Shown: piece after piece, positions 282-64,000 of the stretch
Position numbering within the stretch: the stretch's first letter is position 1
Layout: each line of letters opens with the position of its first letter
Source of the DNA: Azolla caroliniana
Taxonomy: Eukaryota; Plantae; Polypodiophyta
Direction of reading: 5' to 3'
Assembly (NCBI GenBank): GCA_043228905.1
Contig: JBHGNT010000012.1
Coordinates: 18,414,001-18,478,000, forward strand
Length of the DNA: 64,000 nt
Notes under the pieces: model-generated
What the model saw: the letters and a program-made list of their open reading frames with translations, nothing else
What the model was told of the DNA's origin: nothing
Database searches by the model: none
Made by a program: the position numbers and the translations under genes

Positions 282-3200
282 GTGCACTATACTATTTCAG
301 ATGAAATATCAAAGGATGATCCCTCATCACTGAGGGGATCTCCTTGGGAGCTGCGGCTTGCTACCAAAATTCTACGAGAAAGGTCACTTCAGTCTTAGTA
401 AATGCCTCATATTTAATTCCGCATAATTATGAAATATTCTAAAGTAAATATGCCTATGTAACATAGGGCAAAAGCAGCTGATTCAACTTGGTATCAATTG
501 ATCAGAATTCTGCCAAATTCGTTAAGATTGCCACTGTTTTTCTCAGAATCAGTGAGTAGATACGCATCATGTTTTTTAGAATCCACCTCATGTTTGGAAT
601 GGCAATGGCTTTCATTCCTGAAGAGTATCATGTTAAGTATTATTGAATAACATCTTTCATTATCTATAGGAGCTCAAAAATTCTGAAGATGATTCTTTAA
701 TAAGTGAGGTACGGGCATTAAGAATCTTTGCAGAAAGGTCATTCAATGTGCTCTATCAGGACGAGACAGCTGGGGCTGATTTTAATAATTTTGGTAAGAT
801 TCTTAGCTATCATAAAGTTTTAGTTTGGGTTTGATGATGCCATACAAGAAAGAGAACGTCTAATTAGTAACCACAAATGTGTTAAATTGTAGTGTGTGTG
901 GTAATGGGTACATGTTAGGAGCTTTATGTAACCCGGAGTTGTGTCTTTGAACTTTGAATACAGACAAGAATAAGTCTGTGTGTGTCTACAGAGTCTATCT
1001 GTCACACACACACACTCAGTAGATGGGTTCTTGTGAGCATTAGGCTAAGTCATCTGATTCTACATAGACACTGCAGCAGATTTGCTCCCCATCATCTCTG
1101 CTGAAGCTCGATACATGACCTTTGAAGCTGAATACAGAAACTATCTGAGCCTTGACGTGCACCATGAAGTTGTGGATTCACCTTGTGGATTCATCTAGAG
1201 CATTGGGCTCGGCCATTGGTCTTGAGCAAATATTAGCCTTGACATTTACTCTCGAGGATTGAACTTGGACGTTTGAATCAAAGACCTGACTCGAGTATTT
1301 GTGATTGTTCTGCTCACTGAACAATTCTTTAGGCACTCAACACATACCTGGGATGGCATTGGCATCAGAATTTATGACTATGTGTCAAACGAGTATGATG
1401 GATTGAACCTCAATTTCTTGAAGGAGCAGATGTAGGACTATCTCATCATGAAAGGACAGATAGATCCAATTGAAAAAGAATTTGCACCTGTCGAGTATGA
1501 ATCTACAGAATGGTCAAAACTTGATTGGCTAGTTATTTGAATGCATTGAATCATCTTACTTCATAGTACACTCATGTATGACAACTCACAACCTGTGACA
1601 GACACTATCAGACACCGATGAAATGAAAGCTGCTTCCACAAAGATGATACAATGGGTGCAAATTCCCAATGAAATCATCATCTCAGAGTTGTACTATTAC
1701 AATGGATACTTTAAAAGCTTTTTTTCTTTATGCATGGTATGTTGCTTTTGTGGTAAGACTGAACGTTATGACTTGCAGCGTGGGCATTGGCTTTGGTGTA
1801 TGCTTTCGCATGCAGAGCAGAGTATCCACAACATAAAGGGAAACTGAATACCAAAAATTCTCATTTGTTAATACCCTTTCTTGGCTCTCCTACAGATCCC
1901 TCATCCATAGGAGGTTCGTATGTACTTTGAAAAACTCATTTTGCAGAATTGTTTTCAGATTGTGTTCTTTCTAATTGATTAAATATTTAATCAGCTTCTA
2001 TTGAGGTTGATGGAGAGAGATTGAAGCTGGTTATGGGGAGAAAAGCCGTTCAAGGCAGTCCTTTACACTGTAATATTGAAACAAAAACATCAGGAACTTC
2101 TTTTCTGTTTCATGGTAACCCTTGTTCACAATCATGGTGAAACCAATTTCTTTAATTCGGATTATCATTTTTAATTTGTTTTTGAAGTGTTATAGTATAT
2201 CAGGCTTTGTTCCTGCTACTATTCTTCCGCATGATGATGTAAAAGTATTCAAAAATCTGGAGGTATGCGCTAATTTTAGAGTGTTTCTAATATTGTTTCC
2301 TTGAACTGAATTTCATTCTATTTTGATATTCTTGTTATCTCAAAGAATGTTTTTAACAGCACATATCTGATATAGTTTGTGGGATATGCTACCATGATTC
2401 ACAAATGTCCTCCATTTTTAGGATTCAAATCTTAGTATTAAATGATATTGAATCAGAAAGTTAATCTATCCCAAAGATTACAGATGTTCACAAATTACAC
2501 AAAATGAGAAGTATGGACACAGTAAGGATATAATTATGTTAAGCAGAAAGCAATACTAGATATGCACTCTCTCACATCTCATACAGTAGTACATGGCTTC
2601 AACTATTGTAATTGTAGTGCACAAATGGTTAGAGCCATCCACTATGTCTCTTACTAAGAAGATAATTTTCTGTTCTTTATGTTGCATATTCTCTTCTCTG
2701 CTTACTATCACCCACTCCCCTTCGTCTTTATCAGTCTTCACAGGTATAGCCATACTGATAGTACTATATGTTGACGACCTCTGGATAAAACTACAATTAC
2801 GGTGTTTGATACCACTCAAGCTTGTGCACTGAGATCAAAACCGGAATTCTTCTTGCATGAGGAAGAGCTGGCATACATTTGATCGTACATATACATGGGA
2901 TAAATATACTCCAGGCATAGGTTCTCTCTATAGGACAATCATGATGGACTCAGCATACCATTGTGCCAATCCTCAAGAGTGGAGACCCCATGATGCCAAG
3001 CAACTATAGGACAATCATGATTGGCCATTATTTGACTAAACTATATGGGTCGATTCTAGAATCAAAATTGAGTATATGTGCAGAGCGGAATGGTTGCCGT
3101 TCAGTTGGATAGGCAGGCTTTCGGAAGGGGTTCACAACTTGGATGACATATTGACCCTCCGGACCCTTATAGAGGAGGGCAGAGCCCATAATAAGAGGAT

Positions 3201-6200
3201 TTATTGCTGCTTTGTGTATTTCTGAAAAGCCTTTCGACACTGTGCCACGTGCTCGGCTTATGTAGCGGCTAGAAGCCCTTGGTGTTCCTACAGATATGCA
3301 ATGGGGAATCTTTGCTCTTTATGAATCTGTGTCAGGAAAAGTACGGTCTTCCAATGGTTTGTCAGAGACGATGGCTAGCACAATCGGAGTGAAGCAAGGA
3401 TGCCCACTATCACCCACTCTCTTCGGTCTCTATATAGGTGAGGTATCACATTGCAAAGAGAGATTCGGGGGTTCGGGAACACGCCTAGCAGTTATAGCTA
3501 TACAAACATTACTATATGCTGATGATATTGTGATGATTTCTGACTCTCCGGAGGAACTACAAAGACATCTAAATGCCTTAAAACTATTTTGTACGGAAAA
3601 AGGTTTGTCAATCAACATGGAACTAAAATGATGGTGTTTAACACCAATCAAGCGTGGGTAACAAGATCAGAACCAGAATTCTTCTTGGGAGAGGAAAAGG
3701 TGGAATACACATGCTCCTACACATACTTAGGAGTAACATTTATGTGGCATAGGTTCTCCTTACGGGAGGCTGCTTGTGCCCGACTTTCTCGTGGATATGC
3801 AACCCTTGGTGCTCTCGAGAGACAATGTGCACATTTGCAGTTCCAAGATGGCCCACTATAAGACACACTTCTTACACACATCGGAGGATGGATTCATCAT
3901 CAGGCCACCTTATATGGACATACATCTATCCTATGCATTGCGCAGTGTGAAGGGCAGTTTTGAAGTTCATCACATCAGTTACAGATTGAGGTAGGCAGAT
4001 ATACACGAATACCTCTAGAAGAAAGAATTTGCCAATTGTGTCATCAAGGAGTGGAATCCGAAGAACACTATATTTGTCACTATAGTGTCTTTTATGAAAT
4101 CAGCGGGAGATATCATTGCCTCTTTAAAAAAGGCTTTGGCCTGCTACGCAAGGTAATGGAATATGAGGACCGATAGTGCCTAGGACTTTTCTTGCTAGAG
4201 CTCAAGAGACATCGGGAAAAGTTGTTGAAGAATACAGCCACACAAGCTCATCCACAAAGAACAATCACTACTTTCTTTAATCCTATCACTCCTACTAATG
4301 CTACAAGCCAATCAAGGGATACACTAATGGGCTCCCGACCAGGATATACACAAAAGTTGTCGTGCACGTAGGCCCTGGCCCCATGGACCACAACCTCAAA
4401 ACCCTTGTCATCGACAAATAAAAGCCATTATCTCCCACCATCGCAGATGCTTCCCCCGCTTTGGAGGCCTTTCCATTCTGGACTGACCTATGCTAGAGAT
4501 CTTTTGAAGACAAAAGTTACAATATATCTAACTTGAGAATCTCACATGTGCCGAAAACCAGTTTCCCTCATCTCTTTTTATCTTCTTTACTTTTATATTA
4601 CGGAGTAATATTTATTTTATTTTGATTTGTTGTTCTCAAAGATGAGACACCACTTAAGATGTAATCTCTTGTTTGGTCTTATATGCCATTTTAGCCTCTT
4701 AAAAGACGTTAATATATCTTTCTTTCTATGGAAGGCTGCATGTGCTCACATTTATCATGGATAAGCAGCCCTTGATGCCCTTGACAAGACCACCTGCACA
4801 TATGCAGGTCTAAGAATCGCAAACTAAATTGTGGTTGTTTGATACTCTTGTGGCACTGACTCTTTTGCATGAAGTAGAAATTTGGGGCTTGGGCCTTCAA
4901 AGGGCCCATACTTGGACAAATTTGTAGATATCTTTAGACTCAATGATTACCCACATGATAAGGTGCAAAGTGTTTGGGCCACATGATATAATGACAGGCA
5001 ATATTTTGATCAAGATTAGTATCTAATGAATTTAGGAGCTCCCAAAGCAAAGCTACTCAAGACTGCACTTATGTCATCGAAACAGCTGGCTGAACATGGA
5101 GATAATTATTGTTGGTATGCTGAAAGGCTTTCGTGTGATAGTGCAGCTGAAGACCTCTTCATACAAGTTAGAAGAATGTAAAAAGATATATTAACGTCTT
5201 TTAAGAGGCCAAAATGGCCTATAAGACTAAACATGAGATTACATCTTAAGTGTTGTCTCGTCTTTGAGAACAAGAGATCAAAATAAAATAGATATTACTC
5301 AGTAAATACAAAAGTACATAAGATAAAAAGAGACGAGGGAATCTGGTCTTCGGCACATGTCTATTGAAGAGAGGCAAATATGCATACAGGTCTATTGAAG
5401 GATGGATCTACCAAATTTGCCTTACTTATAGAGGGAAGGAGGCAAATGTGCATACAAGTCTATTGAAGAACAGATCTACCAATTGTGCCTTATGAAAGTG
5501 GGGGGATTGGAGGAGGATCATGTTTTCGATTGTCCATTTTTATGAAATAAGAGGAGGATATTGCTGCCTCTTTAGACAAGGCTTTGGCATACTACGCAAA
5601 GTAATGAAATATGGAGATCAATGGGTCTTAGGACAGTTTCTTTCTAGAACTCAAAATGCATAGGAAGAAGTTGTTGAAGGACAACAATACAACCACAACT
5701 GCTGATCAACAAAGAACAATAACAGCTTCCTTTACCTCCATCACTCCTCATGCCACAAGTGAATCAAAGGCTAGAAAAGTAGGGCCTTGACCACAACGCT
5801 CAAAAGAGGCTACAATAGATTGGGAATAATAGTTTGTTGTGCACATGCATCTAGATGATGACCCTGTCATGCTTATTATTGAAAATAAAGGTCATTCTCA
5901 CTAGAATCCAAAGGTGGTTCCCTTGCTTCAGAGGTCTCTTTATCTTGCTGAATCATTCCATCTTGGAGATATTTTGAAGGTAGGAGTTTCTGTCCATCTA
6001 TGCTTATTAGAGACATGAACTAATGTAAGCATAAAATAAGGATAAAAGATAGATCTAGATAGAAAGGAGAGAGAGAAAGAAGGGTGCTGATCCACCAGAC
6101 CACCCCCGAGCGAAGGGATCGAGACGAACTCGAGCCTCGATCGGCGTCCCATACCACCGCCGTGGCGTTGAGTCGTACCTGGTGCTGGCGCGCTCGCTAC

Positions 6201-9200
6201 AAGAGTTGACCCACCACAAGACAGAGTCTCGACATAGTCAACCAGATGATCAAATGAGGGTAGTTAGGCCTCTTATTTATAGCGATACCCAAGGCCCCCA
6301 GGCAAGTTCACACTTGGCCTAATGGGTTGTCTCAATCCCGAGGATTAAAAGTAATCCTCCCCTTCTTTACACTCTCGTTTAACCCTCACACTTATCTACG
6401 TGTATAGAATACTACGGTAAATTCTCACCACGGGATATTATATGGTCATGCCCGTAACAATGCTCAAGATTTTAAGTGCTTAGCTAACGAGATTCTCTGA
6501 CAACCTAGGTAGTTATACTAACTTAGTCTTTCTTATTTTGGTTTTTTGCTTCTCAAAGATATTACAATATTTTAAGATGTAATCTCTCATTTAATATCAT
6601 AAACCATTTTGTCTTCATGCAGAGATTAGTATATCTTTTTGCTCTCTTTCTGTCGTGTGTAAAATATGAAACAAAAATTGATAACAAATACTAGAATGAT
6701 AAAATGTACATTAGGATGATTAAATCTAATATTTCCAAGAGTTTGTATTGTCAACCACATAAAGCTTGATTCAGCTTGAATTGGCCAAATTTCCTTTTGC
6801 AGTCAAGGCTGATATGGTTCTAGGCCATGTCACGTCGAAGGATGGCATTATCATTAACCAGCAAAATACAGGGTTTAGTGGAAGTCTGTACCCTAATGTA
6901 GTGAAATTTAGTCATTTTCATGGCAAAGTTCAATGCCAGAGTACCCTATGTTTGGAACTTGGAGACGGACCTGACATTTCTGCGTCTTATGATTTGGGTC
7001 ACTTGGGCCATCACCTAGTTGGCAATTACTGCCCCCTGTGTTTGTGCGTGACATTACCTTGCTGATTCTGAGTGTAACATTGTCTTGATCACTGATGACT
7101 GCTGCCACTTAGAAGAATAGGTTTTCATAACGTTATATAAATTTGCAATCTAAATTCATTGGACTCCTTTGGAATACATCTACTTTTCAAAGAGGAACTG
7201 AAATTCCTAGACATGGCTCAGGTGCACTTGTTCTGGATGGACCTTGCATTATCCTCTATTTCTGTTTGCAATATGATACTGGGTTAACTTTTCTAAAATA
7301 TTTACTCCAGCTCCATCTCTGACTGCAGGATGTTGTGGACTGGTATTATCCAACCTATGGAGAACATATGCGGCTCAGTAAAGATTCGTTGATGAAGTCA
7401 ATCAGATCTGCATTAAGAATGCTTGATGAGCATTTAAATCAGAACACTCTTGTCGATCGAGTTGCTTCTGTAGCAGGGAGAGAGTATTCTGTGGGGATTG
7501 ATCAATATATTGGTGCACATATGATATGTGCCTTGTATTTTCTCTTCCATTTTGATATTGGGCAGCATAAGACACAAGGTTTAGTTGATGATATGACTGG
7601 TACAGGCCTGGAATCCATATACAACAGTTTCATGATTGGCAATCAAAGCATGATTTTTGGTGGAATAGATGTTTCTGTCTGCAGAGGTAGAACTCCACAT
7701 GCCATTGATAATGATGACATGAAAATACGAATGCTCGTTTCTATGGCCTTGAAGAAACGCCTCTGTGATATCTTGCATAGTTCAGCTACAGAACTGGAAG
7801 AGGATGAAGTGCTTTTAATGGCAAGTTTGTCGGAAGGTTTTACTGAAGAATGTGGAAGCCATCTATGTGAGACATGCCAGTGGCAAACTGAGGAATTGAG
7901 TCTTAATGATTATCTGGGAGTTCAATTACGTGTTAAAAGAAAGAAGATTCTTCATGAGGTTCTACTTGCATTACCATTTATTAATAACGTGGATGAGTGT
8001 GGATGTGCTGAGTCAGCCAAGAATCTAGATATCCTTGATGTGCCTCATACAGATAGCAGTGAAGAGGTACATATAATGAAAAGGTTCATCTTGAATTTTG
8101 AGTGAGAAGCCTTTTCATTACCCAGCTAACATTTGTTTGAATTTCCATGTTCTAGTTTCTGAATTGGTGCAGAATACAAGGTGCACAAATATCAGATAAA
8201 TTGGCAGTTGTACACTTCACCGAGGTTTCAAATCTGACTGATTCTAGAAGTGCTGTACGGGGAGTGCAGGCTGTTGAAGACATTGAACAAGGGGAGACAA
8301 TCTGTATTTTGCCGGTATGTAAACTTGTTGCTTTGTTATAAAATCAATGCTGTTTAAAACCTCTAGATTGGCTTCTGCAAAGAGATTGAATACAATTCTG
8401 AAGCGTATTCTTACTTGCCCAAGATTCATCTCTAATTGAGTTATTTCCTATATTTCTTTAAGCTAATATTGATATTGAAGGTTGGGTTGGCTAATTACGT
8501 TTTATATTAAGGATTAATGGTGTATTAAACTATTGATCTTTGTTATGAGTGGAGTTCTGAATATCGTTTTTGGAGTCTTGATGAGAAACCATCAAAGAAG
8601 AGAGAACAGATTATTTCCTTAAGTGTCCTGCAAAACGAGAAATTAAAGAGCATCCGCCAGTTTACATGAAGTATAGCCAAGCTTAGGTGCTGGTTGCAAG
8701 ATATCATTGTCCATAGAGCCCAAACTCCAACCTGTGTTAAAAGGCAGCCAGTGGGGCAAATAGCCCTACGGATATGGCCCAAATATGAAATGGGAAGGTT
8801 TGATACAAATAGAGTGGTTGCTGTATATCATGGTTTGAAGGGCCCAAACCAAACTCATGTGAAAAGGTGGTGGAAAGGAAAGAGATATTTGAAACTACAT
8901 GAGAATCCTTGATACCAATGGAGTAATGGAACTGGGGCAAACCAAATACTGTTGATACAAAAAAACACAACTTCAGAAACAAAAAAGCAGGGTTAGAAAA
9001 GTAATAGTGGTGCACTGTTTACATTTTGATTGATTTTATAACTGTGCTTGTGTGCTGTGTTGTTGTAGTTGAAAATGGGCCTCTTTAAGAAGGATTCATC
9101 CCGTCTTGGTGGTGCTGACAGTTGGCACTTGGCTGCAGCAAACCTCCTTCATGAAAAGTAAATTTCATGTTAAGTGTTAATACAAGATAGCATGCATCAT

Positions 9201-11803
9201 GATTTTATAGGTTGTAATAGTAGATTGTCACATATGAGTATTTGCAGGGCGATTGGAACCAAGTCAAAATGGGCAAACTACATATCAGTTCTTCCCAAAG
9301 AAATACAGACACCTATATACCTGGCACCAAATGTGTGTATATGTAATTCTATAGACAGTCAGTTTGTTTGTTTTCATTGTTTGACAGATTGAGATATTTG
9401 AGCCACTCTAATTTTCTTACAGGAATTGAAAGAGGTCCAATGGTGGCCACTGCTACGTGAACTCATTCAAGTGCGACGAGCCATGAAGTTGAGCTTTAGT
9501 CAGCTCAAGGGGAAAGAACTAGGGGATGCAAGTTTTGAGGAATATAGTAGGGCCATTCTGGTTTAGTACATGATTTCTTTTGCACATGAATATTGTATTC
9601 AGAAAGCATACCATCTTTCAAACCATGTGCAGGATGGGCAGCTACCATGGTTCATAGTCGAGCATTCACTCTACCTGTGGAGGATGATGATGAGTATGCT
9701 CCATATGTGTTAATGCCATTTATGGACATGATAAATCACCATTATGGATATCAGGTGAGTCTCAGGCTACATGACATATAATCAGATATTTAAATAGAGT
9801 AAAACAATACCCATAACATGTGGGGTAATTACCAGATTAACTCTAATGTTTGAGATATTAAGAGAATACGCTGTTGTGGTTATAAATTCTGTACATAGGC
9901 GTATTGTACTAACTTTCAAAAATATAGGCGTCATTCTCTGAAATGTCTAAAATATTAGTGATATCTTGGTATTTATCCCAAATTTTGTCAATTTATTTAT
10001 ATACTCATAAATCAAAGCATTAACTCTGGTTTTTTTAATGACTTATATTGTAGGCTGACTGGATGTCTGTACCTGTAAGCGAAGGAAAACTTGAGATAGT
10101 TGCAAAAAAACGTGTTAATCGGGGACAGCAACTTTTTGCGTCTTTTGGTCCACGTTCAAATGATAATCTTTTCCTTTATTATGGTAATATTTCTGAACAG
10201 ACTATGCATGAGGAAAATTTATTCTCATGAATATAAAATCAAAACCAGATAATTTGTTATGTTTTCCTAACTTTTACTAGAGGATGCATGAGCTTGTGGG
10301 ACAAACCTTGCATTACATTGTGATTGATCCCGGACTCAGGAAGCTATGTTTTGCGTAGTGAGGAAGCAATGAAATTGTTCTATAGGAAGAAGAAGCTTTC
10401 AGAAGTTATGAAAAGTTATGTAACTGTTGAGTAGAACCAAGAACTGGAAACTTTGAGGAAACAGTGAAACATCCCTCTCAAGTGTCCTTCTAGCTGTTGG
10501 AGTTTTGTAGGTCTGATTACCAGAGGAAAATAAGAATAAATGGCAGATACACATGCATTCGTGTTGATAAATGTATTAGGTCGAAATTGAAAAGGTCTGG
10601 CACTAAGTATTTCCAATTTCAAAGTACAATGATTTATTTTAAACAAAAGATAATGGAGAGAAATATTGCAGCTAGGTTAGTTGGATATGTCTGTCTCAAG
10701 TATGCTTTAGCTTTATTGTTCATGCAGCAATGGGAAGCCAACTATTCATTAGAGAATTGTAAATAGTATTTAATGTTACATGTATTGTTGGGAAGTATCT
10801 CATTGGCTGTTTTCCAATTTCCAAATTATTCATAGTTTTTGGCTAGTCATGGGGAGGAGTCTTTTCGATGCTTTTGTCATAAGAATGGAAATTTAATTTA
10901 TAGGCCAAAAAGTATACATTGCTATATCCCTTTGAATCACACAATAATACTTTGTTTTGAATTTTAAACTTTTGAAGGATTTGTTCTGGAAAACAATCCG
11001 TTCGACACAGCAGAAATATTTGCATCATTTCAGGTCTTTATCTTGATTTATTGTTTGATAATAAAGAGAATGGTAGCTTCAGACTGACAATCCTCTTTAT
11101 GCAGAATGCAGTTCACTGGTTCACAGCCCTATGGCAAGCAAAATGTGGCATCCTCTCTACGCTAAAAGAAAAGGAACAATGCAAATTGAAACAAAATGAG
11201 CTTAAATGGGTGATATCCCAACAAGCAATAGAAGATTACTCTGCCGGTGTGACAGAACAGAGACCAGAGTGGTGGACTCTTGTGAATATGTGGGCTGATT
11301 ATGGCTATGAATATATGCAATTTCAGCCAAGTCCATCCATTTATGTGGGTGGTATAGTAGATCCAACCCTTCTTGTTGCATTAGAGGCAGTTGCAAAATC
11401 TCTAGTACCCGAGACCATTGATGCATTTGGAGAATGTAAAGGTGGATCTTGTGATTTTAGTAACATCACAGAATCCTATCTGGGTGATTTCTTTGCGTGT
11501 ATTCACGACACTCAATGGGTTGGTTCTAGATGGTCTCTACATTCGTCACTTTGTTCTAACCTCGTGTCTCGAGCATTCTCATCCATTGAGGATCGGTTAT
11601 TGTATGCCAAGTATATGGTCAAGGTTGGTCTGTCTCTTCGTTGTGTTGAAATATTGAACTCAATGCCAACGACACTTGAAGAGGATGGACTGCTTCTCAA
11701 AACGTCTACTGATGCAAGCATGCATGTACAATTGGCTCGACAATATAGATACATAAAGAAGTTATTCATTAAACAATTTATTGGAGTATCTGAAAACTTA
11801 TAA
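282..11803 (+). CDS. Tandem double SET-domain protein, Rubisco LSMT/SETD3/SETD6-like (SET + substrate-binding domain, twice); 5' end lies outside the window
   Basis: Exons joined in frame via GT..AG: 282-382, 467-551, 670-793, 1779-1913, 1995-2114, 2204-2262, 7329-8066, 8156-8314, 9069-9157, 9248-9332, 9423-9546, 9633-9754, 10054-10183, 10978-11033, 11105-11803 (TAA). Module 2 motifs: FLNWC..G..IS.KL, RGVQAVEDI..GE, SKWANYISVLP, WAATMVHSRAF, LMPFMDMINH, FGPRSNDNLFLYYGF..ENNPFD, PTTLEED.LLL. Module 1 has matching but degenerate motifs: WELRLATKILRE, STWYQLIRILP, WALALV, FLFHGF, ATELEEDEVLL. Confidence 0.85.
880..1650 (+). mobile_element. Degenerate Ty1/copia fragment (LTR/PBS/gag start) in a SET-gene intron
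   Basis: PBS-like TTGGCATCAGA near 1359, followed by gag-like EYDGLNLNFLKEQM*DYLIMKGQIDPIE with an in-frame stop. Boundaries are approximate. Confidence 0.5.
2990..4721 (+). mobile_element. 5'-truncated, frameshifted non-LTR retrotransposon (RTE-like LINE): RT plus 3' end
   Basis: RT motifs QAGFR, GVKQGCPLSPTLFGLYI, LLYADDIV and YTYLGV; C-terminal ERICQLC...ESEEHYICH. Multiple stops and frameshifts. Confidence 0.85.
5182..5360 (-). mobile_element. Antisense copy of the same LINE 3' end
   Basis: Reverse complement of 4544-4721, e.g. AAAAGATATATTAACGTCTTTTAAGAGG versus CCTCTTAAAAGACGTTAATATATCTT. Confidence 0.8.
5400..6640 (+). mobile_element. Second, more decayed 3' fragment of the same LINE family, split by a solo LTR
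   Basis: 5520-5760 parallels 4060-4300 (TTTTATGAAAT..GGAGGATATTGCTGCCTCTTTAG..AAGGCTTTGGC). The 3' tail resumes at about 6490-6640 (TTAAGATGTAATCTCT). Confidence 0.7.
6005..6459. mobile_element. Solo LTR (455 bp) with 5-bp TSD
   Basis: Ends are TATTAG (decayed TG) and TAACA, flanked by ATGCT at 6000-6004 and 6460-6464. The interior is GC-richer than the flanks and has a minus-strand TATAAATA near 6274-6281. Confidence 0.7.
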
Positions 11804-56848: not shown

Positions 56849-59800
56849 TTATAACATGGTCGTGTCAAGAGTTCGAATCTTGACATTATCCCCCCTCTTA
56901 CGCCGCCGCCTTCCCAAATCGGCCGCTGGTTTGTGGGGATATCGGTGATGAAAATCTTGGACGACCTCTGGGGCATTTTGTAAATTTGCTGATGGTTCCC
57001 ATGTGGCCTCAGACATGGGGTAACCCCTCCATAGGACGAGGTATTGCAAGTGTTGACGGTGCCAACGCGAGTCAAGGATTTGGTCGACCTCGTATTCCTC
57101 CCCTGTCGTCAATTGCACAGGTGGTGGTGGTGGGGCTTGACGTCCTGGGAGTTGTGAAGCATAATGGGGTTCGAGGAGGGAGACATGAAAAACATCGTGA
57201 ATCCGGAAGTGGGATGGAAGGGCGAGCCGGAAGGCGACGGGATTGATGCACTCGATGATACGGAATGGTCCTAGCTTCTTGTAATCAAGTTTCGCACATG
57301 GACGAGTAGTAGAGATGTGTCGACGTAACAACCAGACCATGTCTCCAACGACAAAGTGTGGAGTTGAAGATCGATGGCGATCAGCCTGCTTCTTGTATCG
57401 TTCATTAGCAAGACTAAGCTCCAAGGATAAATCATGATGTACTTCTTCCAAAATACGGGCACGATCCTCCGCCGAAGGGTTCACGGAAGTGGTAGGAAGG
57501 GAAATGTTGAAGCGAGGATGTAAACCGTAGTTGGCAAAGAAGGGAGTGACGCCAGTCGATGCATGGAGAGAATTATTGTAGGCGAATTCCGCGAGCGAAA
57601 GTAAGTTGACCCAATCATCTTGTTGGTAACTAACCGAGCACCGAAGATACTGCTCAAGGATTTGGTTGACACGCTCCGTTTGCCCGTCAGTTTGGGGGTG
57701 ATAAGCGGAGGACAACTTGATAGAGATGCCTAGAGTTTGTAGCAGGCGCTGCCAGAAGTGAGAGACAAACTGGGGTCCGCGATCCGAGATGACATCATCG
57801 GGGAGTCCATGCAAGCGTACTACATTGTTGAGTAGGAGATGCACCATTCCTTCTCCGGAAATGGTTTTGGAGCATGGAGTGAAGTGAGCCATCTTCGTAA
57901 ACCGATCGACAACGACCAACACCGAGTCATAGCTATTGACCAAGGGTAGATCAGTTATCAGGTCCATAGAGATAGAGGCCCAAGGACGACGAGGACATGG
58001 AAGCGGCTGTAGTAAGCCGTATGGCCGATGATGAATGGCTTTGGAGCGAGCACAAACCTCACAACTCTTTATGTATTCTTTGACCAGCTTCCATGGTTGT
58101 GGCCACCAATACCCCCGAGAGATTAGCTCGAGGGTTTTCGCGACCCCGAAATGACCTGCAAGTGGGTCATCGTGGCATTCCCGCAACACCCGGGTGCGAC
58201 ATGGGCCCTCTGGGACGTATAAGAGATGATCTCGGAACAACAAACCCTCTTGTATGGTGAAGGTGTCAAGATCCTTCCTTTTGGTCGCCTTGGAGGGGTT
58301 TTGCAAACTATCTCGAATCTCGTTGGCGAACGCATCGGTCTTGGATGCATCAGTGATTTGTTGGAGTAAAGAATCATCCTGCAACATACAAGTGGCAAAC
58401 AGATGCAATTGGTCGGGTTTCAACAAACGTCTAGATTGTTGAGCATAAGCAGCATCCCCAGGGCGGAGTGCAAGGTCAGCTCGGCGAGAAAGGGCATCAG
58501 CCTTCCCATGTTGGCCACCAGGTCGAAATACGATCTCAAAATCGTAGTCGGCGAGAAATGTAGACCAACGGGCCTGCCTTCGATTCAAAGTACGAGTGGT
58601 GGAAAAATAAACTAAATTTTTATGATCAGTCACTACCTGGACACGATGTTGTGCGCCGGCCAAGTAGGGTCGCCATTCTTCAAAGGCAGCAATGATAGCA
58701 GCAAGCTCCTTGTCGTAAATGGGATAATTGATTTCAGATGCCGTAAATTTTCGGGAATAGTAAGCCACTGGGTGCATTAGGTTGTTGTCGTCTGCTTGGG
58801 ATAAGATGGCGCCAATGGCAAAGTCAGAGGCATCGGTTTCGACTTGGAAGGGTTTTGTGGGGTCGGCATGTAGCAGCACCGGGGCAGTGATGAATGCGTG
58901 TTTGAGTGAGTCGAACGCATTTTGTGCCTCCGAGGTCCATAAAAATGGAGTGCCTTTATGGGTGAGAGCGATAAGAGGTTGTGCTAGGGTGGAAAACCCC
59001 TTGATGAAGCGACGGTAAAAATTCGCGAAGCCGAGGAAGGATTGCACATCTTTAAGTCGCCTTGGAGTCGCCCACGCCTGAATGACAGAGACCTTCTTCA
59101 TATCCATGGTGATGCCAGTGGGCGAGATGATGTAGCCCAGAAATTCGATCGAGGTACGGTCGAACTCGCATTTCTCGCCTTTGGCATAAAGGCCATGCTC
59201 GCGAAGTTTGGCCAGAACTAATCGGACTTGGCGAGTGTGCTCCTCCATGTTTGGCGAGAAAATGAGAATATCATCGAGGTAAATGACAACAAAAAGATCA
59301 AGATATTCCCGGAAAATATCGTTCATCATATGTTGAAAAACTGCGGGAGCGTTAGTAAGACCAAAAGGCATTACCTTGTATTCGAAATGCCCATACCGTG
59401 TTCGAAATGCGGTTTTCCATTCATCCCCCGGCTTGATGCGTACTAGATTGTACGCGCCACGCAGATCAACTTTGGAGAAGACACGCGCAACTCGGAGCCG
59501 ATCAAGGAGTTCGGGGATCAAAGGTAGCGGATAGCGGTTGCGCACAGTGAGTTTGTTGAGACCTCGGTAATCGACGCATAAGCGTAGAGAGCCATCCTTC
59601 TTCTTCACAAATAAAATGGGGGCCCCGGCTGGTGACTTAGAAGGTTGAATAAAGCCTTTCTCGAGGTTCTCATCAAGATACACACGAAGGGCCTTCAACT
59701 CTGGTGCAGACAACGCATATAGAGGACCAAAGGGTGGACACGCACCTTCTTGAAGATCAATCGGACAGTCGTAGAGCCGGTGTTCAGGCAACCGATCAGC

Positions 59801-60433
59801 ATTACATTTTTCAAATACGTCGGAGAAGTGTTGGTATTTTTCGGGAATAACATGGAGTGTGTTAGAAATGGTGCCACAAACAAACCCATCCTGGACGGAT
59901 GATGGGGTAGTCAATTCGGAGTCGACCGTCTCCGAAGGATAGGAAACTGAATTTACCTTCATACTTTTGCACGAGCATCTTGGCTTGCTAAATGTGATCG
60001 AGCGGTTGCACCAATCCACTATTGGATTGTGCGCCTCCAACCACGTTAGTCCTAAGACGATCGGATGTCGAGGAGATGCGATGAGGTAAAAGGTGAGCTC
60101 CTCTTGGTGTGAGCCCACCCGAAGCCCTAATGGGATTGTAGCTTGAGTAATTGCACCTGACGAGAGGACGCACCCGTCGATGGCTTCAACTGGAATGGGT
60201 TTTGAGAGGCCAACGACAGGTACGCCATGTGCTTGGGCAAACGCGACGTCGATGAAGCAAGAAGATGCCCCAGAATCAAGTAAAGCAACAGACTGAATGG
60301 AACTAGAGTTAAACGAAAGCCATACCTCCAATGTGAAATTGCCTGATGGTCCGGCAATGGAACCAAGAGAATGTGGGCGACGGGAGATGTCCAGTTGCAT
60401 GGCTCCTACTGCAACCGAACGATGTCGTTTTCC
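56849..60433 (-). CDS. pol: Pol: protease-RT-RNase H-integrase-chromodomain, probably expressed by -1 frameshift
   Basis: LLDSGAS, LCVDYRGLN, YLDDILI, ETDASD, H..GH..C..C, DDVISDRGPQF, DGQTERVN, LGPF, and chromodomain YEVDQIL...YLVLWRGY...ATWEP. The ORF ends inside the 3' LTR. Confidence 0.97.
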   Translation of the reverse strand, partial: GKRHRSVAVGAMQLDISRRPHSLGSIAGPSGNFTLEVWLSFNSSSIQSVALLDSGASSCFIDVAFAQAHGVPVVGLSKPIPVEAIDGCVLSSGAITQATIPLGLRVGSHQEELTFYLIASPRHPIVLGLTWLEAHNPIVDWCNRSITFSKPRCSCKSMKVNSVSYPSETVDSELTTPSSVQDGFVCGTISNTLHVIPEKYQHFSDVFEKCNADRLPEHRLYDCPIDLQEGACPPFGPLYALSAPELKALRVYLDENLEKGFIQPSKSPAGAPILFVKKKDGSLRLCVDYRGLNKLTVRNRYPLPLIPELLDRLRVARVFSKVDLRGAYNLVRIKPGDEWKTAFRTRYGHFEYKVMPFGLTNAPAVFQHMMNDIFREYLDLFVVIYLDDILIFSPNMEEHTRQVRLVLAKLREHGLYAKGEKCEFDRTSIEFLGYIISPTGITMDMKKVSVIQAWATPRRLKDVQSFLGFANFYRRFIKGFSTLAQPLIALTHKGTPFLWTSEAQNAFDSLKHAFITAPVLLHADPTKPFQVETDASDFAIGAILSQADDNNLMHPVAYYSRKFTASEINYPIYDKELAAIIAAFEEWRPYLAGAQHRVQVVTDHKNLVYFSTTRTLNRRQARWSTFLADYDFEIVFRPGGQHGKADALSRRADLALRPGDAAYAQQSRRLLKPDQLHLFATCMLQDDSLLQQITDASKTDAFANEIRDSLQNPSKATKRKDLDTFTIQEGLLFRDHLLYVPEGPCRTRVLRECHDDPLAGHFGVAKTLELISRGYWWPQPWKLVKEYIKSCEVCARSKAIHHRPYGLLQPLPCPRRPWASISMDLITDLPLVNSYDSVLVVVDRFTKMAHFTPCSKTISGEGMVHLLLNNVVRLHGLPDDVISDRGPQFVSHFWQRLLQTLGISIKLSSAYHPQTDGQTERVNQILEQYLRCSVSYQQDDWVNLLSLAEFAYNNSLHASTGVTPFFANYGLHPRFNISLPTTSVNPSAEDRARILEEVHHDLSLELSLANERYKKQADRHRSSTPHFVVGDMVWLLRRHISTTRPCAKLDYKKLGPFRIIECINPVAFRLALPSHFRIHDVFHVSLLEPHYASQLPGRQAPPPPPVQLTTGEEYEVDQILDSRWHRQHLQYLVLWRGYPMSEATWEPSANLQNAPEVVQDFHHRYPHKPAADLGRRRRKRGDNVKIRTLDTTML

Positions 60434-61422
60434 GGATGGTGGGGTCCGTTAGCTCTATGGAATTGTGGGCGAGTACTCCTAGGACAATGGCGAACGACAT
60501 GACCGGAGGCGCCACAATACATGCACAAGCCATTAGCCCGCCGAAATTGTCGTTCAGCATCAGTCAATGGTCGAAATCGGGCTTGATCAATTTCCATGGG
60601 GACAGGAGCATCTGCCGAAGTAGGCGAGTGTGAGGATGCTTGGGGTTGTATGACCGGGGCGTGGCGTGGAAGTGAATGAGGTGGGAACCAAGTCCGGCGC
60701 TCTTCTTGGCGAAATTCGAAAAGACGATTGTCACAATGGACTGCTTGTGAAATCGCTTGGGATAACGAGGTGGGCTCCGGAAAGTTTAAGAGAAGATTCT
60801 TGACATTGCTTCGAAGACCGCGCCGAAAGTGATCAGCTAAAGCTTGATCATCCCAATTGACGTCGCATGCTAGTTGTCGAAATTCGGAAGCATAGACCGA
60901 AGTTGCACGTGAACCTTGTTCGAGTGCATAAATCTTGTTAAGAGCTGTACGTCGTCGGTCCGTCTCTCCAAATGTGGCCTCTAACTCGGCGAGGAAGGCG
61001 GGAAAGTCCTCCAATAAAGGTGATGAGGTTTCTACCAATGGTGCAAACCAAGCTTGGGCCGGACCGGAGAGAAGGGTGCCCACAAGGCCGACTTGTCGAA
61101 GACCATCTCCATAACGTTGAGGTTGTAGCCGAATGATAAGTCGAACTTGGTTGATGAACCCTCGGAAACGCGACCTCGTTCCATCAAATTTTTCTGGGAG
61201 GCTAACCTTAGGCTCAAGAAACTGTGACGAAGCTAGGCTAGATGTTGGTAGAAGATCGGGCTCTAGGCTAGGTTGTTGTGGGAGACTAGGGTTCGGGGGT
61301 TGTGAGGATAGGGAGGTACCGACTTGAAGTTCTTGTAAAGAATTTCGAAGAGCTTCATTTTCAAGTTGTAGTTGTCGCAAGGCTACCATTATTTGGCCTA
61401 ACTCACTAGTTGAGTCGGACAT
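60406..61422 (-). CDS. gag: Gag (PEG10/Tcn1-like capsid plus CCHC zinc knuckle)
   Basis: PEKFDG.R..FRGF, LEQG..ATSVYASEF, PVPMEID, CMYCGASGHVVRHC. Confidence 0.95.
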   Translation of the reverse strand: MSDSTSELGQIMVALRQLQLENEALRNSLQELQVGTSLSSQPPNPSLPQQPSLEPDLLPTSSLASSQFLEPKVSLPEKFDGTRSRFRGFINQVRLIIRLQPQRYGDGLRQVGLVGTLLSGPAQAWFAPLVETSSPLLEDFPAFLAELEATFGETDRRRTALNKIYALEQGSRATSVYASEFRQLACDVNWDDQALADHFRRGLRSNVKNLLLNFPEPTSLSQAISQAVHCDNRLFEFRQEERRTWFPPHSLPRHAPVIQPQASSHSPTSADAPVPMEIDQARFRPLTDAERQFRRANGLCMYCGASGHVVRHCPRSTRPQFHRANGPHHPENDIVRLQ

Positions 61423-64000
61423 AGCTATGGCTTATGAGAGGGAGAGCTATGAGGATGGGAAGGTGAACAAACTGTCACGGATCATAAACTCAAGAAACAA
61501 CGAAGAAGATAACCAAATGGACAAGAAAGAAGATAGTACTAAAGGAAAGACTCCATAACTGGTGTTGTTCACCTTGAATTCCTTCAAGGTGAACTCCTCT
61601 ATTTATACTACATGGCATGCATACTTGTTGCACGCATGTGAATCTACAATAGAGCATGTAGGTATGCATGCATGTGCCAAGTGTAAATACTACAAGGGAG
61701 CAACTATGCACATGATGCTAGCAAAATAATAAGGAACAATTACATACATAACTAGTACTAGATATCTTGGTTAACTCATAATAGTAGATTATAACATGGT
61801 CGTGTCAAGAGTTCGAATCTTGACAGTTAGGAGGGGTTAAAGGTGGTGTTTCAAATTTCATTAAGTATACAACAAGGCTACCCACTAGCACCATATCTAT
61901 TTCTATTTTTTGTTGAAGTTATGTGCTTGTTTTTTGTTGGTGAAGATGTTGGATTGAATGGAATAGCTATGCCCCTTGATGGGACAAATGTTCTGGATGT
62001 AGAATTATCTAGATGGTTAGATTACTAATTTGCAAAAATGTAAACAATAGTGCAAACTTTTTGTACTACTTTAGGTGCATCAATTAATTGGAACAAATCA
62101 GTGGGTTTTTGGGTGACATCGAATTCCACTCCACAATGATGTCCTCATCTAGATTTCCGATGGATTCTCAAGGGAAACTCAGTTAGATATTTGGGATGCC
62201 AAGTAGCCTTCAAAATTTCTAGTGGGTAGAGTGATAGTAGTCAATCAAGTTCTTTTGTCTAGTCTTTGGTATATTATGTCACATTGGAGTTTTTTCAGAT
62301 CATGTATGGGACAATTACAAAGATTGATCCGGAATGATTTGTGGTTTGGTAATGATGGAAATCATGCTAGGGCAAAGGTCTCATTACAACAATCCAAAGC
62401 TTTGGTTGCGAAATTGGTGATTGTTACCAGGATCAGAACCTTGGAAACAATTCTTATTATACAAATTGCAAAAGTTTGTCCCCAAATTGGTGGAGATTGG
62501 AGGCCCAATTTTTTATGGATTTTTATGGAACACAACAAGTTGGTTATTTGCTTGGTCTATTCTTAATTCATGGAAAGACGTTTCTCTTGATTTAGTTAAG
62601 AGATTGCCAAAACAAAAACTGAATTCTATGGATGACCCTTGATTTGGAATTCGTATTTTGCTGACAATAGGGGACATATGTTGGGAAGGCATACTCGATG
62701 TGCATGGGCAGAATTAGATTGCAGACCAACACAATCTATAGGTGCATGGACATCATTCCTGTCTACACCTATAGAACGATAATGCTTAATAATATAAGGG
62801 GTAGAAAGACAATATATTATGCGATATAAACCACCCTGTCTAATATTTAGATGCAATTTGGATCTTCTACACATATTGGGTTTATTTACTACATTGGATT
62901 TTTTCATTGGAGTAAAACCCTATATTGGGGAAGAAGTTTGTATGACCTTTGATGTACATGATGATGGTAGGTTAACTTTCACACATAAGGAAACTAATTT
63001 GTTTAGTTTTTTGTTTGCATAAAGAAGTGAGGGTGATTGCAAATGATGGATAAAATTAGGTCTTAGATCTGGATCAACAAAAGGTGAATTACTTTTGAAG
63101 GATATGGATTATGGAAAGGAGACCAATATCTAAATTAACTTGGATCTTGGAGAATTGTATTGAATGGTGTGGATTCAAGATAAGAGAAAACATGTGCCTT
63201 TTTGAAACATTATTTGAAGATTGGTAGGAAAATATTAGGTGCTAGATCATGGAAAGAACAAACCACAAATGCTTTCTAGAGACGAAGTGGACTTTCTCCA
63301 TAACATTTCAAACAAATTTGGCAATGGTTGTGGGTTATAACAATGAGTAGGAAAAATGATTGTTTTTGTTGGTTGTTGGTTCATAGAGCTATACGAATTA
63401 ATGGTTGACGAAAGGGAAATACAAGATGTGCTCTTTTTGTGTGGATCTAGTAGAGACTATTAAGCATTGTTTGTGGAGTTGTGGTTTTGTGATGGAAATA
63501 TGGAAAAGAATGATAACAATGTTAATATCACTATATCCTTGAGAAGTGTATACATGGGAAGCGGTATTATGGGCGGTGGTAAAAGATAAACCAATGGTAT
63601 ACGAACAAGAAGTGGTTGCATATGCTATTGCTATGAGACATGGTTTGATGCAAAAAACATTAATACCTTTGAATCCATAAATAGAGATTGATAAACCTGA
63701 AATATGGCAATTGGTAAGTAGTATCACAATTTGGTATATTTGGGAGGCTCTATGGTTGAAGGTATTTCAAAATGTGATTGAAAGACCTACCCAAATAATT
63801 TTTGGGATTTGGACAGAGATTGTGCATAATCTCAGAGGTTCTTTGAATAATATAAAAGGTAATATGCAACAGGCTGAGCTCGGTTGGAGTTTCATGCCAC
63901 CCGGGACATAAGCATATTTTATAGATGGATTTCTAATAAGGTAGAGTAGTTCTACTCTACACTAGAATATTTATTTAAGCCAATGGTTAGAATTTAGAAA

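What the first reader, a model, noticed from the sequence alone, without database searches (positions are those of the whole stretch)
282..11803. One gene encoding two tandem LSMT-type SET modules, made by intragenic duplication with mirrored exon structure
Seen in sequence: the apparent end of 'gene 1' (ORF 7335-8105) contains a donor GAG|GTACAT at 8067. An 89-bp intron ends at TTCTAG|8156 and joins SEE in frame to FLNWCRIQG, the start of a second SET domain. There is no ATG or promoter space for an independent second gene. Exons mirror between the halves: 467-551 and 9248-9332 are both 85 bp, 670-793 and 9423-9546 are both 124 bp with the same phases, and 59 bp pairs with 56 bp. Established: Rubisco LSMT, SETD3 and SETD6 carry a single SET plus substrate-binding module. 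Inference: an ancient tandem duplication and fusion produced a double-SET protein. Retention of the 89-bp intron would give a module-1-only isoform ending at 8105.
Basis: partly seen in the sequence, partly recalled or inferred. Interest (0 to 1): 0.75.

Follow-up and report, generated by a model that had tools for sequence, protein, structure and literature searches.

The report
Secretory double-SET protein of spore plants
One spliced fern gene, shared with a lycophyte, a moss and liverworts, encodes two SET methyltransferase-type modules in a row behind a predicted signal peptide; the first has lost its catalytic motifs and the second, despite an unusual active-site swap, likely methylates a target inside the secretory pathway.

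Summary
Confirmed and extended. The 8066/8156 splice is in contigs of 4 of 4 runs laid, and the gene has three more exons upstream of the window: 18 exons, 1096 aa, no internal stop. All 7 internal introns of the two halves fall in the same alignment columns. Full-length double orthologues exist in ferns, a lycophyte, a moss and liverworts; conjugating green algae have single-module orthologues of module 2; no named seed-plant orthologue appeared. New points: (1) a predicted signal peptide (9 of 13 doubles), while the closest single relatives end in HDEL/HEEL, pointing to the ER/Golgi lumen; (2) module 1 keeps the fold but lost the RG, SRAF and NH motifs (13 of 13); (3) module 2 keeps them but has Phe at the near-invariant catalytic Tyr (15 of 15 versus Tyr in 111 of 113 relatives). 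The tree rejects a duplication after the algal split, so intragenic duplication versus fusion of old paralogues is unresolved. A moss annotation has the module-1-only retained-intron isoform. Best reading: a lumenal pseudo-SET plus non-canonical SET methyltransferase; activity and substrate untested.

The parts
282..382 (+). Exon 4 of 18 (module 1). Exons 1-3 lie upstream of the window (L004:338-457 with ATG and signal-peptide-like stretch, 1855-2025, 2778-2951)
   Evidence: (loose ends in 4 of 4 runs continue into window 285 onward)
467..551 (+). Exon 5, 85 bp, mirrors 9248-9332
670..793 (+). Exon 6, 124 bp, mirrors 9423-9546
   Evidence: joint to 1780 in X5 (table 5c)
1779..1913 (+). Exon 7: module-1 counterpart of SRAF and NH motifs, both lost; invariant Cys at the pocket-Phe position
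   Evidence: boundary supported by gap-free match to orthologues, joint not displayed
1995..2114 (+). Exon 8: module-1 counterpart of motif IV, degenerate
2204..2262 (+). Exon 9, 59 bp, mirrors 10978-11033
2263..7328 (+). 5066-bp intron with degenerate reverse-transcriptase fragments
   Evidence: joint in 4 of 4 runs; RVT_1 E 7.7e-16 at 3266-3628
7329..8066 (+). Exon 10: helical C-terminal lobe of module 1, with invariant CxxC at 7866-7877
8067..8155 (+). 89-bp phase-0 junction intron; homologous in position to intron 2; retention would stop at 8103-8105
8156..8314 (+). Exon 11: start of module 2, RG motif I
9069..9157 (+). Exon 12
9248..9332 (+). Exon 13, 85 bp
9423..9546 (+). Exon 14, 124 bp
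9633..9754 (+). Exon 15: SRAF and intact NH motif (codons 9734-9739, N796-H797)
10054..10183 (+). Exon 16: motif IV with Phe833 (codon 10144-10146) at the catalytic Tyr position
10978..11033 (+). Exon 17, 56 bp
11105..11803 (+). Exon 18: helical C-terminal lobe of module 2 and stop
   Evidence: (Rubis-subs-bind E 0.0038, under cut-off)

Best explanation
This is one spliced gene for a 1096-residue protein with two LSMT/SETD3-type modules in tandem, predicted to enter the ER/Golgi lumen, where module 2 likely transfers methyl groups from SAM to a secretory-pathway substrate and module 1 likely serves as a non-catalytic binding or regulatory partner. Shown: single gene, exon mirroring, both folds (predicted model), motif states, distribution. 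Inferred: lumenal location (hydrophobic N-terminus, HDEL/HEEL relatives, invariant cysteines); SAM binding by module 2 (RG, NH, YGF kept for the age of land plants); slow or altered chemistry because the catalytic Tyr is Phe; most likely target an amine (lysine-type SRAF pocket) on a secreted or lumenal protein. Origin: duplication of a signal-peptide SET gene at or before the split of conjugating algae and land plants, fixed as one reading frame in the land-plant stem by splicing from a donor in the last exon of copy 1 to the phase-0 acceptor that opens copy 2.
For: Junction in 4 of 4 runs, single contigs of 2257 and 2390 nt running from exon 10 to exon 18; open 1096-aa frame; 12 other full-length doubles at 33-52% identity; 7 of 7 intron positions shared; model halves align to whole SETD3 (42-566, Z 18.9, rmsd 4.7, 383 aligned) and SETD6 (589-1089, Z 18.8, rmsd 5.2, 371 aligned). 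Module 2: RG, SR.F, D..NH, YGF in 13 of 13; module 1: none of RG, SR.F or NH intact in 13; mean identity 52% versus 36%. Hydrophobic N-terminus in 9 of 13 doubles and 2 of 2 algal singles versus 17 of 113 other SET hits; 4 of the nearest single relatives carry both it and HDEL/HEEL, strict HDEL/KDEL 2 of 17 versus 0 of 96; 8 invariant Cys. SAM is imported into the plant Golgi (10.1101/2021.07.06.451061, abstract start).
Against: Phe replaces the catalytic Tyr in 15 of 15; the same change cuts SETD3 kcat about 36-fold and raises KM for SAM about 58-fold (PMC6400499) and abolishes SAM binding in DIM-5 (PMC6684798), so module 2 may be inactive. Signal peptides were scored by a hydropathy window only; 4 of 13 doubles fall under the cut-off (one at 2.25, one 5'-truncated, two Riccia models), and I used the longer isoforms for Ceratopteris, Marchantia and Physcomitrium. 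The doubles have no HDEL/KDEL. N-glycosylation sequons are only modestly above expectation (96 versus 77). The model is of low-moderate confidence (pLDDT 58, pTM 0.49). No substrate evidence at all. Assembled contigs do not prove one molecule end to end.
Confidence: 0.5

Rival explanations
1. Both modules are pseudo-enzymes: the protein is a lumenal or extracellular binding, scaffold or sensor protein, module 2 binding SAM/SAH or a methylated residue without turnover.
For: Tyr-to-Phe at the catalytic position in 15 of 15 versus Tyr in 111 of 113 relatives; equivalent mutants are crippled or dead; module 1 shows the lineage tolerates loss of catalysis.
Against: All other catalytic-site motifs of module 2 are invariant in 15 of 15 across algae to ferns; SETD3 Y313F keeps residual activity.
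Confidence: 0.27
2. Module 2 methylates a non-amine acceptor in the Golgi, for example rhamnose O-3 of arabinogalactan proteins; the Tyr-to-Phe change would reshape the site for it.
For: Predicted secretory location; found in ferns, lycophyte, bryophytes and conjugating algae but not in named angiosperm proteins; 3-O-methylrhamnose occurs in bryophyte, fern and some gymnosperm AGPs, not angiosperms, and its methyltransferase is unknown (10.1101/2025.03.14.643249, passages).
Against: Only a match of distributions; no hornwort or gymnosperm orthologue was identified here although both have the sugar; I know of no SET-fold O-methyltransferase (recalled); that paper proposes DUF579 proteins; the SRAF pocket is lysine-type.
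Confidence: 0.06
3. The protein is not lumenal: the hydrophobic N-terminus anchors it with the SET modules facing the cytosol, or targets it to an organelle, and it methylates cytosolic or organellar proteins as LSMT, SETD3 and SETD6 do.
For: All solved relatives are cytosolic, nuclear or plastid proteins; no predictor of cleavage was run; sequon excess is weak.
Against: Short N-terminal hydrophobic stretch followed by small residues; HDEL/HEEL on 4 close relatives; two-Cys loop in 13 of 13 module 1 and 8 of 14 signal-bearing relatives versus 16 of 80 without, Fisher p 0.007, relatedness not corrected.
Confidence: 0.14
4. Origin rival: module 1 came from a different, Tyr-bearing ER-type paralogue that lay next to the module-2 gene and fused with it, rather than from duplication inside one gene.
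For: M1+M2 clade rejected (p 5e-5); M1 with the HDEL-type algal clade not rejected (p 0.30, named after seeing the tree); module 1 has Tyr in the motif-IV column in 8 of 13; the M1 profile scores P0048 and P0029 (132, 129 bits) above algal module-2 orthologues (121, 113).
Against: M1+M2+algal singles is not rejected either (p 0.08); the M1 profile scores land-plant M2 highest (up to 152 bits); all intron positions are shared; the C-x-F/L-P leader before module 1 sits before the Closterium module-2 orthologue (11 of 15 family rows versus 3 of 113 others); M1 is a long branch (1.08).
Confidence: 0.4
5. Two separate neighbouring genes, with the junction a rare read-through.
For: A stop lies 39 bases past the donor and a module-1-only isoform is annotated in moss.
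Against: Junction in 4 of 4 runs at the depth of neighbouring exons; no usable ATG or polyadenylation hexamer; 12 full-length doubles in other species.
Confidence: 0.02

Closest known systems
Rubisco LSMT (PDB 1mlv, 1ozv, 2h21)
   Same: SET domain with large insertion plus helical C-terminal lobe; Z 17.2-17.3 to module 2; SRAF pocket Phe shared
   Different: Single module, plastid stroma, catalytic Tyr present; here two modules, predicted signal peptide, Phe for Tyr
SETD6 (3qxy) and SETD3 (6jat, 6mbj)
   Same: Same two-lobe fold, Z 18-19 to either half; RG and NH motifs align with module 2
   Different: Single, cytosolic/nuclear; Tyr285/Tyr312-313 present; SETD3 has Asn at the pocket position and methylates histidine
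PAP7/pTAC14 of the plastid RNA polymerase (8qma, 8w9z)
   Same: LSMT-type fold; best phmmer hit of the Spirogloea single, E 1.4e-14
   Different: Plastid, single, Tyr kept
Unnamed signal-peptide SET proteins of streptophyte algae and unlabelled transcriptomes (P0029, P0034, P0038, P0039, P0048)
   Same: Hydrophobic N-terminus, two-Cys loop, top non-family hits
   Different: Single module; 4 end in HDEL/HEEL; motif-IV Tyr kept in 4, Trp in P0048; uncharacterised
Diatom-specific SET methyltransferases proposed for cell-wall proteins (Nemoto et al. 2020, seen only as cited in PMC11554505 and PMC11151724)
   Same: Precedent for SET proteins linked to wall-bound substrates
   Different: Relationship not tested here; their location and activity were not checked in the original paper
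Other tandem LSMT-type proteins P0080, P0140, P0147, P0149
   Same: Two SET cores in one chain
   Different: Motif-IV Tyr visible in both cores; P0080 falls outside the family in the tree on a long branch, the others were not placed; taxa unknown

Membership tests
LSMT/SETD3/SETD6-type SET methyltransferases | SET domain with insertion plus C-terminal helical (Rubis-subs-bind) lobe, module 2 | tested here: met
   Pfam SET over cut-off in 4 of 5 fern orthologues; Z 18.8 to SETD6, 17.3 to LSMT
LSMT/SETD3/SETD6-type SET methyltransferases | Same fold, module 1 | tested here: met
   Model 42-566 on SETD3, Z 18.9, rmsd 4.7, 383 aligned; M2 profile finds 13 of 13 M1 at E 2e-19 or better, no shuffle; Pfam SET itself does not hit module 1
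LSMT/SETD3/SETD6-type SET methyltransferases | SAM-binding RG and NH motifs, module 2 | tested here: met
   13 of 13 doubles and 2 of 2 algal singles
LSMT/SETD3/SETD6-type SET methyltransferases | SAM-binding RG and NH motifs, module 1 | tested here: not met
   No His at the NH position and no RG pair column-wise in 13
LSMT/SETD3/SETD6-type SET methyltransferases | Invariant catalytic Tyr of motif IV, module 2 | tested here: not met
   Phe in 15 of 15; Tyr in 111 of 113 other hits; aligned on SETD3, SETD6 and PAP7 Tyr
LSMT/SETD3/SETD6-type SET methyltransferases | Lysine-type pocket Phe (Asn in SETD3), module 2 | tested here: met
   Phe in 15 of 15; role from PMC6684798 passages
LSMT/SETD3/SETD6-type SET methyltransferases | One module per chain | tested here: not met
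   Two modules in 13 of 13 full-length land-plant proteins
LSMT/SETD3/SETD6-type SET methyltransferases | Plastid, cytosolic or nuclear location | tested here: inconclusive
   Hydropathy and relatives point to the secretory pathway; no localisation data
LSMT/SETD3/SETD6-type SET methyltransferases | SAM-dependent methylation of Lys or His | not testable with these tools
   needs assay
Diatom-specific cell-wall SET methyltransferases | Sequence kinship with the diatom clade | not tested
   no diatom member was identified among the hits

The most novel reading that the evidence does not exclude
A SET-fold enzyme of the Golgi lumen that has left lysine chemistry: a pseudo-SET module holds the substrate and a Tyr-to-Phe SET module methylates a wall glycan, making it the missing rhamnose 3-O-methyltransferase of arabinogalactan proteins in spore-bearing plants, lost in flowering plants.
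Probability: 0.06. Interest if true: 0.9.

Novelty: new variant of a known kind. Interest (0 to 1): 0.62.

Why it matters
SET enzymes are treated as nuclear, cytosolic or organellar. A single-copy family with predicted signal peptides, kept from conjugating algae through ferns and apparently lost in flowering plants, would open SET-type methylation in the plant secretory pathway. It is also a natural test of whether the near-invariant catalytic Tyr is dispensable, and a clean pseudo-enzyme/enzyme tandem. Orthologues in Marchantia (Mp8g03600) and Physcomitrium (LOC112295293) make it directly testable by knockout.

Tried and rejected
No RNA holder is on record for the stretch; the runs used are RNA by the tool's guess. 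Pfam on 9 single exons gave nothing over cut-off. Five of the 14 window introns (382/467, 551/670, 1913/1995, 2114/2204, 11033/11105) were not displayed in the cut table. A phase-0 alternative for the 1913/1995 intron (1921/2006) was considered and dropped because orthologues align without gaps to the phase-1 model. Self-BLAST printed no off-diagonal hit; splitting the halves did. Complex prediction of module 1 with module 2: no answer, score 0.01, alignment not used; not evidence either way. No second copy in the own genome with two exon queries; an HDEL-type paralogue was not found with P0029 as query, which shows nothing. ESM Atlas gave only generic LSMT/SET clusters. P0036 (1746 aa) has one split SET core, not two. 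The first all-against-all alignment timed out and was rerun faster. Paper searches: gene ids, 0 papers; SET+signal peptide+LSMT+Marchantia (41), 'two SET domains' (42), SET+secretory (47), SET+HDEL+ER (86) listed nothing on this family by title or abstract start; Y287F/Y335F search empty (52). Earlier findings: none. Selaginella, hornwort and gymnosperm orthologues were not seen among named hits; unnamed hits could not be assigned, so their absence is not shown.

Full report
Observation. Fifteen window exons with GT..AG introns give an open frame of 941 codons. The 89-bp intron 8067-8155 is phase 0. Contigs of 4 of 4 runs laid (4 of 19 listed; 4 studies; RNA is the tool's guess; they differ from the window by a few percent, so they are relatives) skip it exactly, and two single contigs of 2257 and 2390 nt run from exon 10 to exon 18. 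Eight of the 14 window introns are displayed as joints and a ninth with one letter between; the table was cut. Contigs do not prove one molecule. No usable start or polyadenylation hexamer lies in the gap.

The gene is longer than reported. Upstream DNA holds three more exons. Joints exon 1-2 (X14, X5) and 2-3 (X5) are seen, and exon 3 continues into window 285 onward as a loose end in 4 of 4 runs, across an 8031-bp intron with an integrase-bearing retroelement. The whole gene has 18 exons and encodes 1096 aa with one stop. Two exon queries found one place each in the genome.

Duplication. The halves are 22.6% identical over 452 columns, E 4e-22; 13 of 13 doubles show the internal match. In a protein-only alignment 7 of 7 internal introns coincide, 6 in phase and 1 shifted by a base; the junction intron sits like intron 2, phase 0 just before the first helix of a module (chance about 1.5e-15). 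An AlphaFold model of orthologue P0005 (pLDDT 58, pTM 0.49) aligns each half to whole solved proteins: 42-566 to SETD3 (Z 18.9), 589-1089 to SETD6 (Z 18.8), 588-1092 to LSMT (Z 17.3).

Distribution. Full-length doubles: Pteridium, Adiantum, Ceratopteris, Diphasiastrum, two Riccia, two Marchantia, Calypogeia, Physcomitrium and three unnamed transcripts, one of them 5'-truncated. Single-module orthologues: Closterium P0014 and Spirogloea P0015, with a Mesotaenium fragment. No named seed-plant protein is among the 5, 14 and 9 hits of the three searches; unnamed rows cannot be assigned, and Selaginella, hornworts and gymnosperms were not seen, so loss is likely only for angiosperms (inference from their heavy sampling). 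The window's two modules each fall inside the ferns.

Active sites. I aligned 13 M1, 13 M2, 2 algal singles and 113 others (112 of the 139 hits P0029-P0167 with 380-900 aa, plus P0021). Module 2 keeps RG, SR.F, D..NH and YGF in 15 of 15 but has Phe where 111 of 113 others have Tyr; the position aligns on the Tyr of SETD3, SETD6 and PAP7. SETD3 Y313F has about 36-fold lower kcat and 58-fold higher KM for SAM (PMC6400499, passages); SETD6 Y285A is inactive and DIM-5 Y283F loses SAM binding (PMC6684798, passages). Module 1 lacks RG, SR.F (Cys in 13 of 13) and NH, and evolves faster (36% versus 52% mean identity): a pseudo-SET by inference.

Location. A 12-residue hydropathy window of at least 2.3 in the first 45 residues is present in 9 of 13 doubles and 2 of 2 algal singles, versus 17 of 113 other hits (those of 139 with 350 aa or more and a first Met). 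For three species I used the longest isoform; two of the shorter database models lack the stretch. Six of the first seven such hits by rank carry it, and P0029, P0048 (HDEL), P0038, P0039 (HEEL) have ER-retention-type ends; the doubles have none. Eight Cys are invariant in 13 doubles, including a CxxC in module 1; a two-Cys loop at that place is in 8 of 14 signal-bearing versus 16 of 80 other relatives, but only 4 of 13 M2 and 0 of 2 algal singles. Sequons are 96 against 77 expected, weak. This is a heuristic case for the ER/Golgi lumen or beyond; SAM import into the plant Golgi is reported (10.1101/2021.07.06.451061, abstract start only).

Origin. A 52-row tree (10 of the 13 doubles split in two, 2 algal singles, 30 others picked by hand from the best hits) puts M2 with the algal singles (100/100) and leaves M1 on a long, unresolved branch. 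M1+M2 alone is rejected (p 5e-5); M1+M2+singles (p 0.08) and M1+HDEL-type clade (p 0.30) are not. So the duplication predates the algal split or long-branch pull hides it. Shared introns and the C-x-F/L-P leader also found in Closterium favour duplication within one gene lineage; Tyr in 8 of 13 M1 favours an older paralogue. Either way, fusion by splicing into the phase-0 acceptor in the land-plant stem is the simplest step (inference). Tandem SET cores are not unique: 4 of 14 long hits have two.

Mechanism and rivals. I commit at 0.5 to a lumenal SAM-dependent methyltransferase with module 2 catalytic but non-canonical and module 1 a binding or regulatory partner. Rivals: double pseudo-enzyme 0.27; non-lumenal enzyme 0.14; glycan O-methyltransferase 0.06, prompted by the unexplained 3-O-methylrhamnose of spore-plant AGPs (10.1101/2025.03.14.643249, passages); two genes 0.02.

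Literature. No paper in the held library names the Marchantia, Physcomitrium or Ceratopteris gene ids. The Archaeplastida SET survey (PMC5725981, passages) mentions two SET domains only for a Su(var) class; its supplements were not opened and may list a member. Searches listed nothing on this family by title or abstract start. Diatom wall-linked SET proteins were seen only second-hand (PMC11554505, PMC11151724, passages). bioRxiv supplements were not available. Subscription journals are mostly not searched. Locations of LSMT, SETD3, SETD6 and the meaning of HDEL/HEEL are from my own knowledge.

Verdict. Real, conserved, apparently undescribed variant of the LSMT/SETD family; it works like one in fold and SAM site but fails membership on the catalytic Tyr and on module number. 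Interest 0.62.

Noticed in passing
L002:3016-4746 and 8228-9958 (second arm ends at window 58), intron 3: A retroelement with integrase domains carries a 1731-nt, 100% complementary inverted repeat: an assembly fold-back or a very recent rearrangement inside an expressed gene.
   Followed up: partly
P0029, P0048, P0038, P0039, P0034, P0040, P0036 (hits): A wider clade of single LSMT-type SET proteins with hydrophobic N-termini, four ending in HDEL/HEEL, most with intact catalytic Tyr, in streptophyte algae: candidate canonical ER-lumen methyltransferases, worth their own study.
   Followed up: partly
P0080, P0140, P0147, P0149: Other eukaryotic proteins with two LSMT-type SET cores, apparently a separate origin; taxa unknown.
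   Followed up: partly
P0155 (Gefionella): The only non-family hit with Phe at the catalytic Tyr position also has a hydrophobic N-terminus, on a distant long branch.
   Followed up: no
window 1913/1995 versus 9754/10054: Homologous intron differs by one base in phase between the modules: possible single-base intron sliding.
   Followed up: partly
window 2263-7328: Intron with degenerate reverse-transcriptase fragments and a 124-nt, 92% inverted repeat (4598-4721 / 5182-5305).
   Followed up: partly
L003:1040-5200: An upstream spliced gene that looks like a 3'-5' exonuclease by recall; two exons gave no Pfam hit.
   Followed up: partly
window 56849-61431 (-): Long open gag- and pol-like frames of a Ty3/gypsy-type retrotransposon (341 and 1199 aa; label from reading the sequence).
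   Followed up: no
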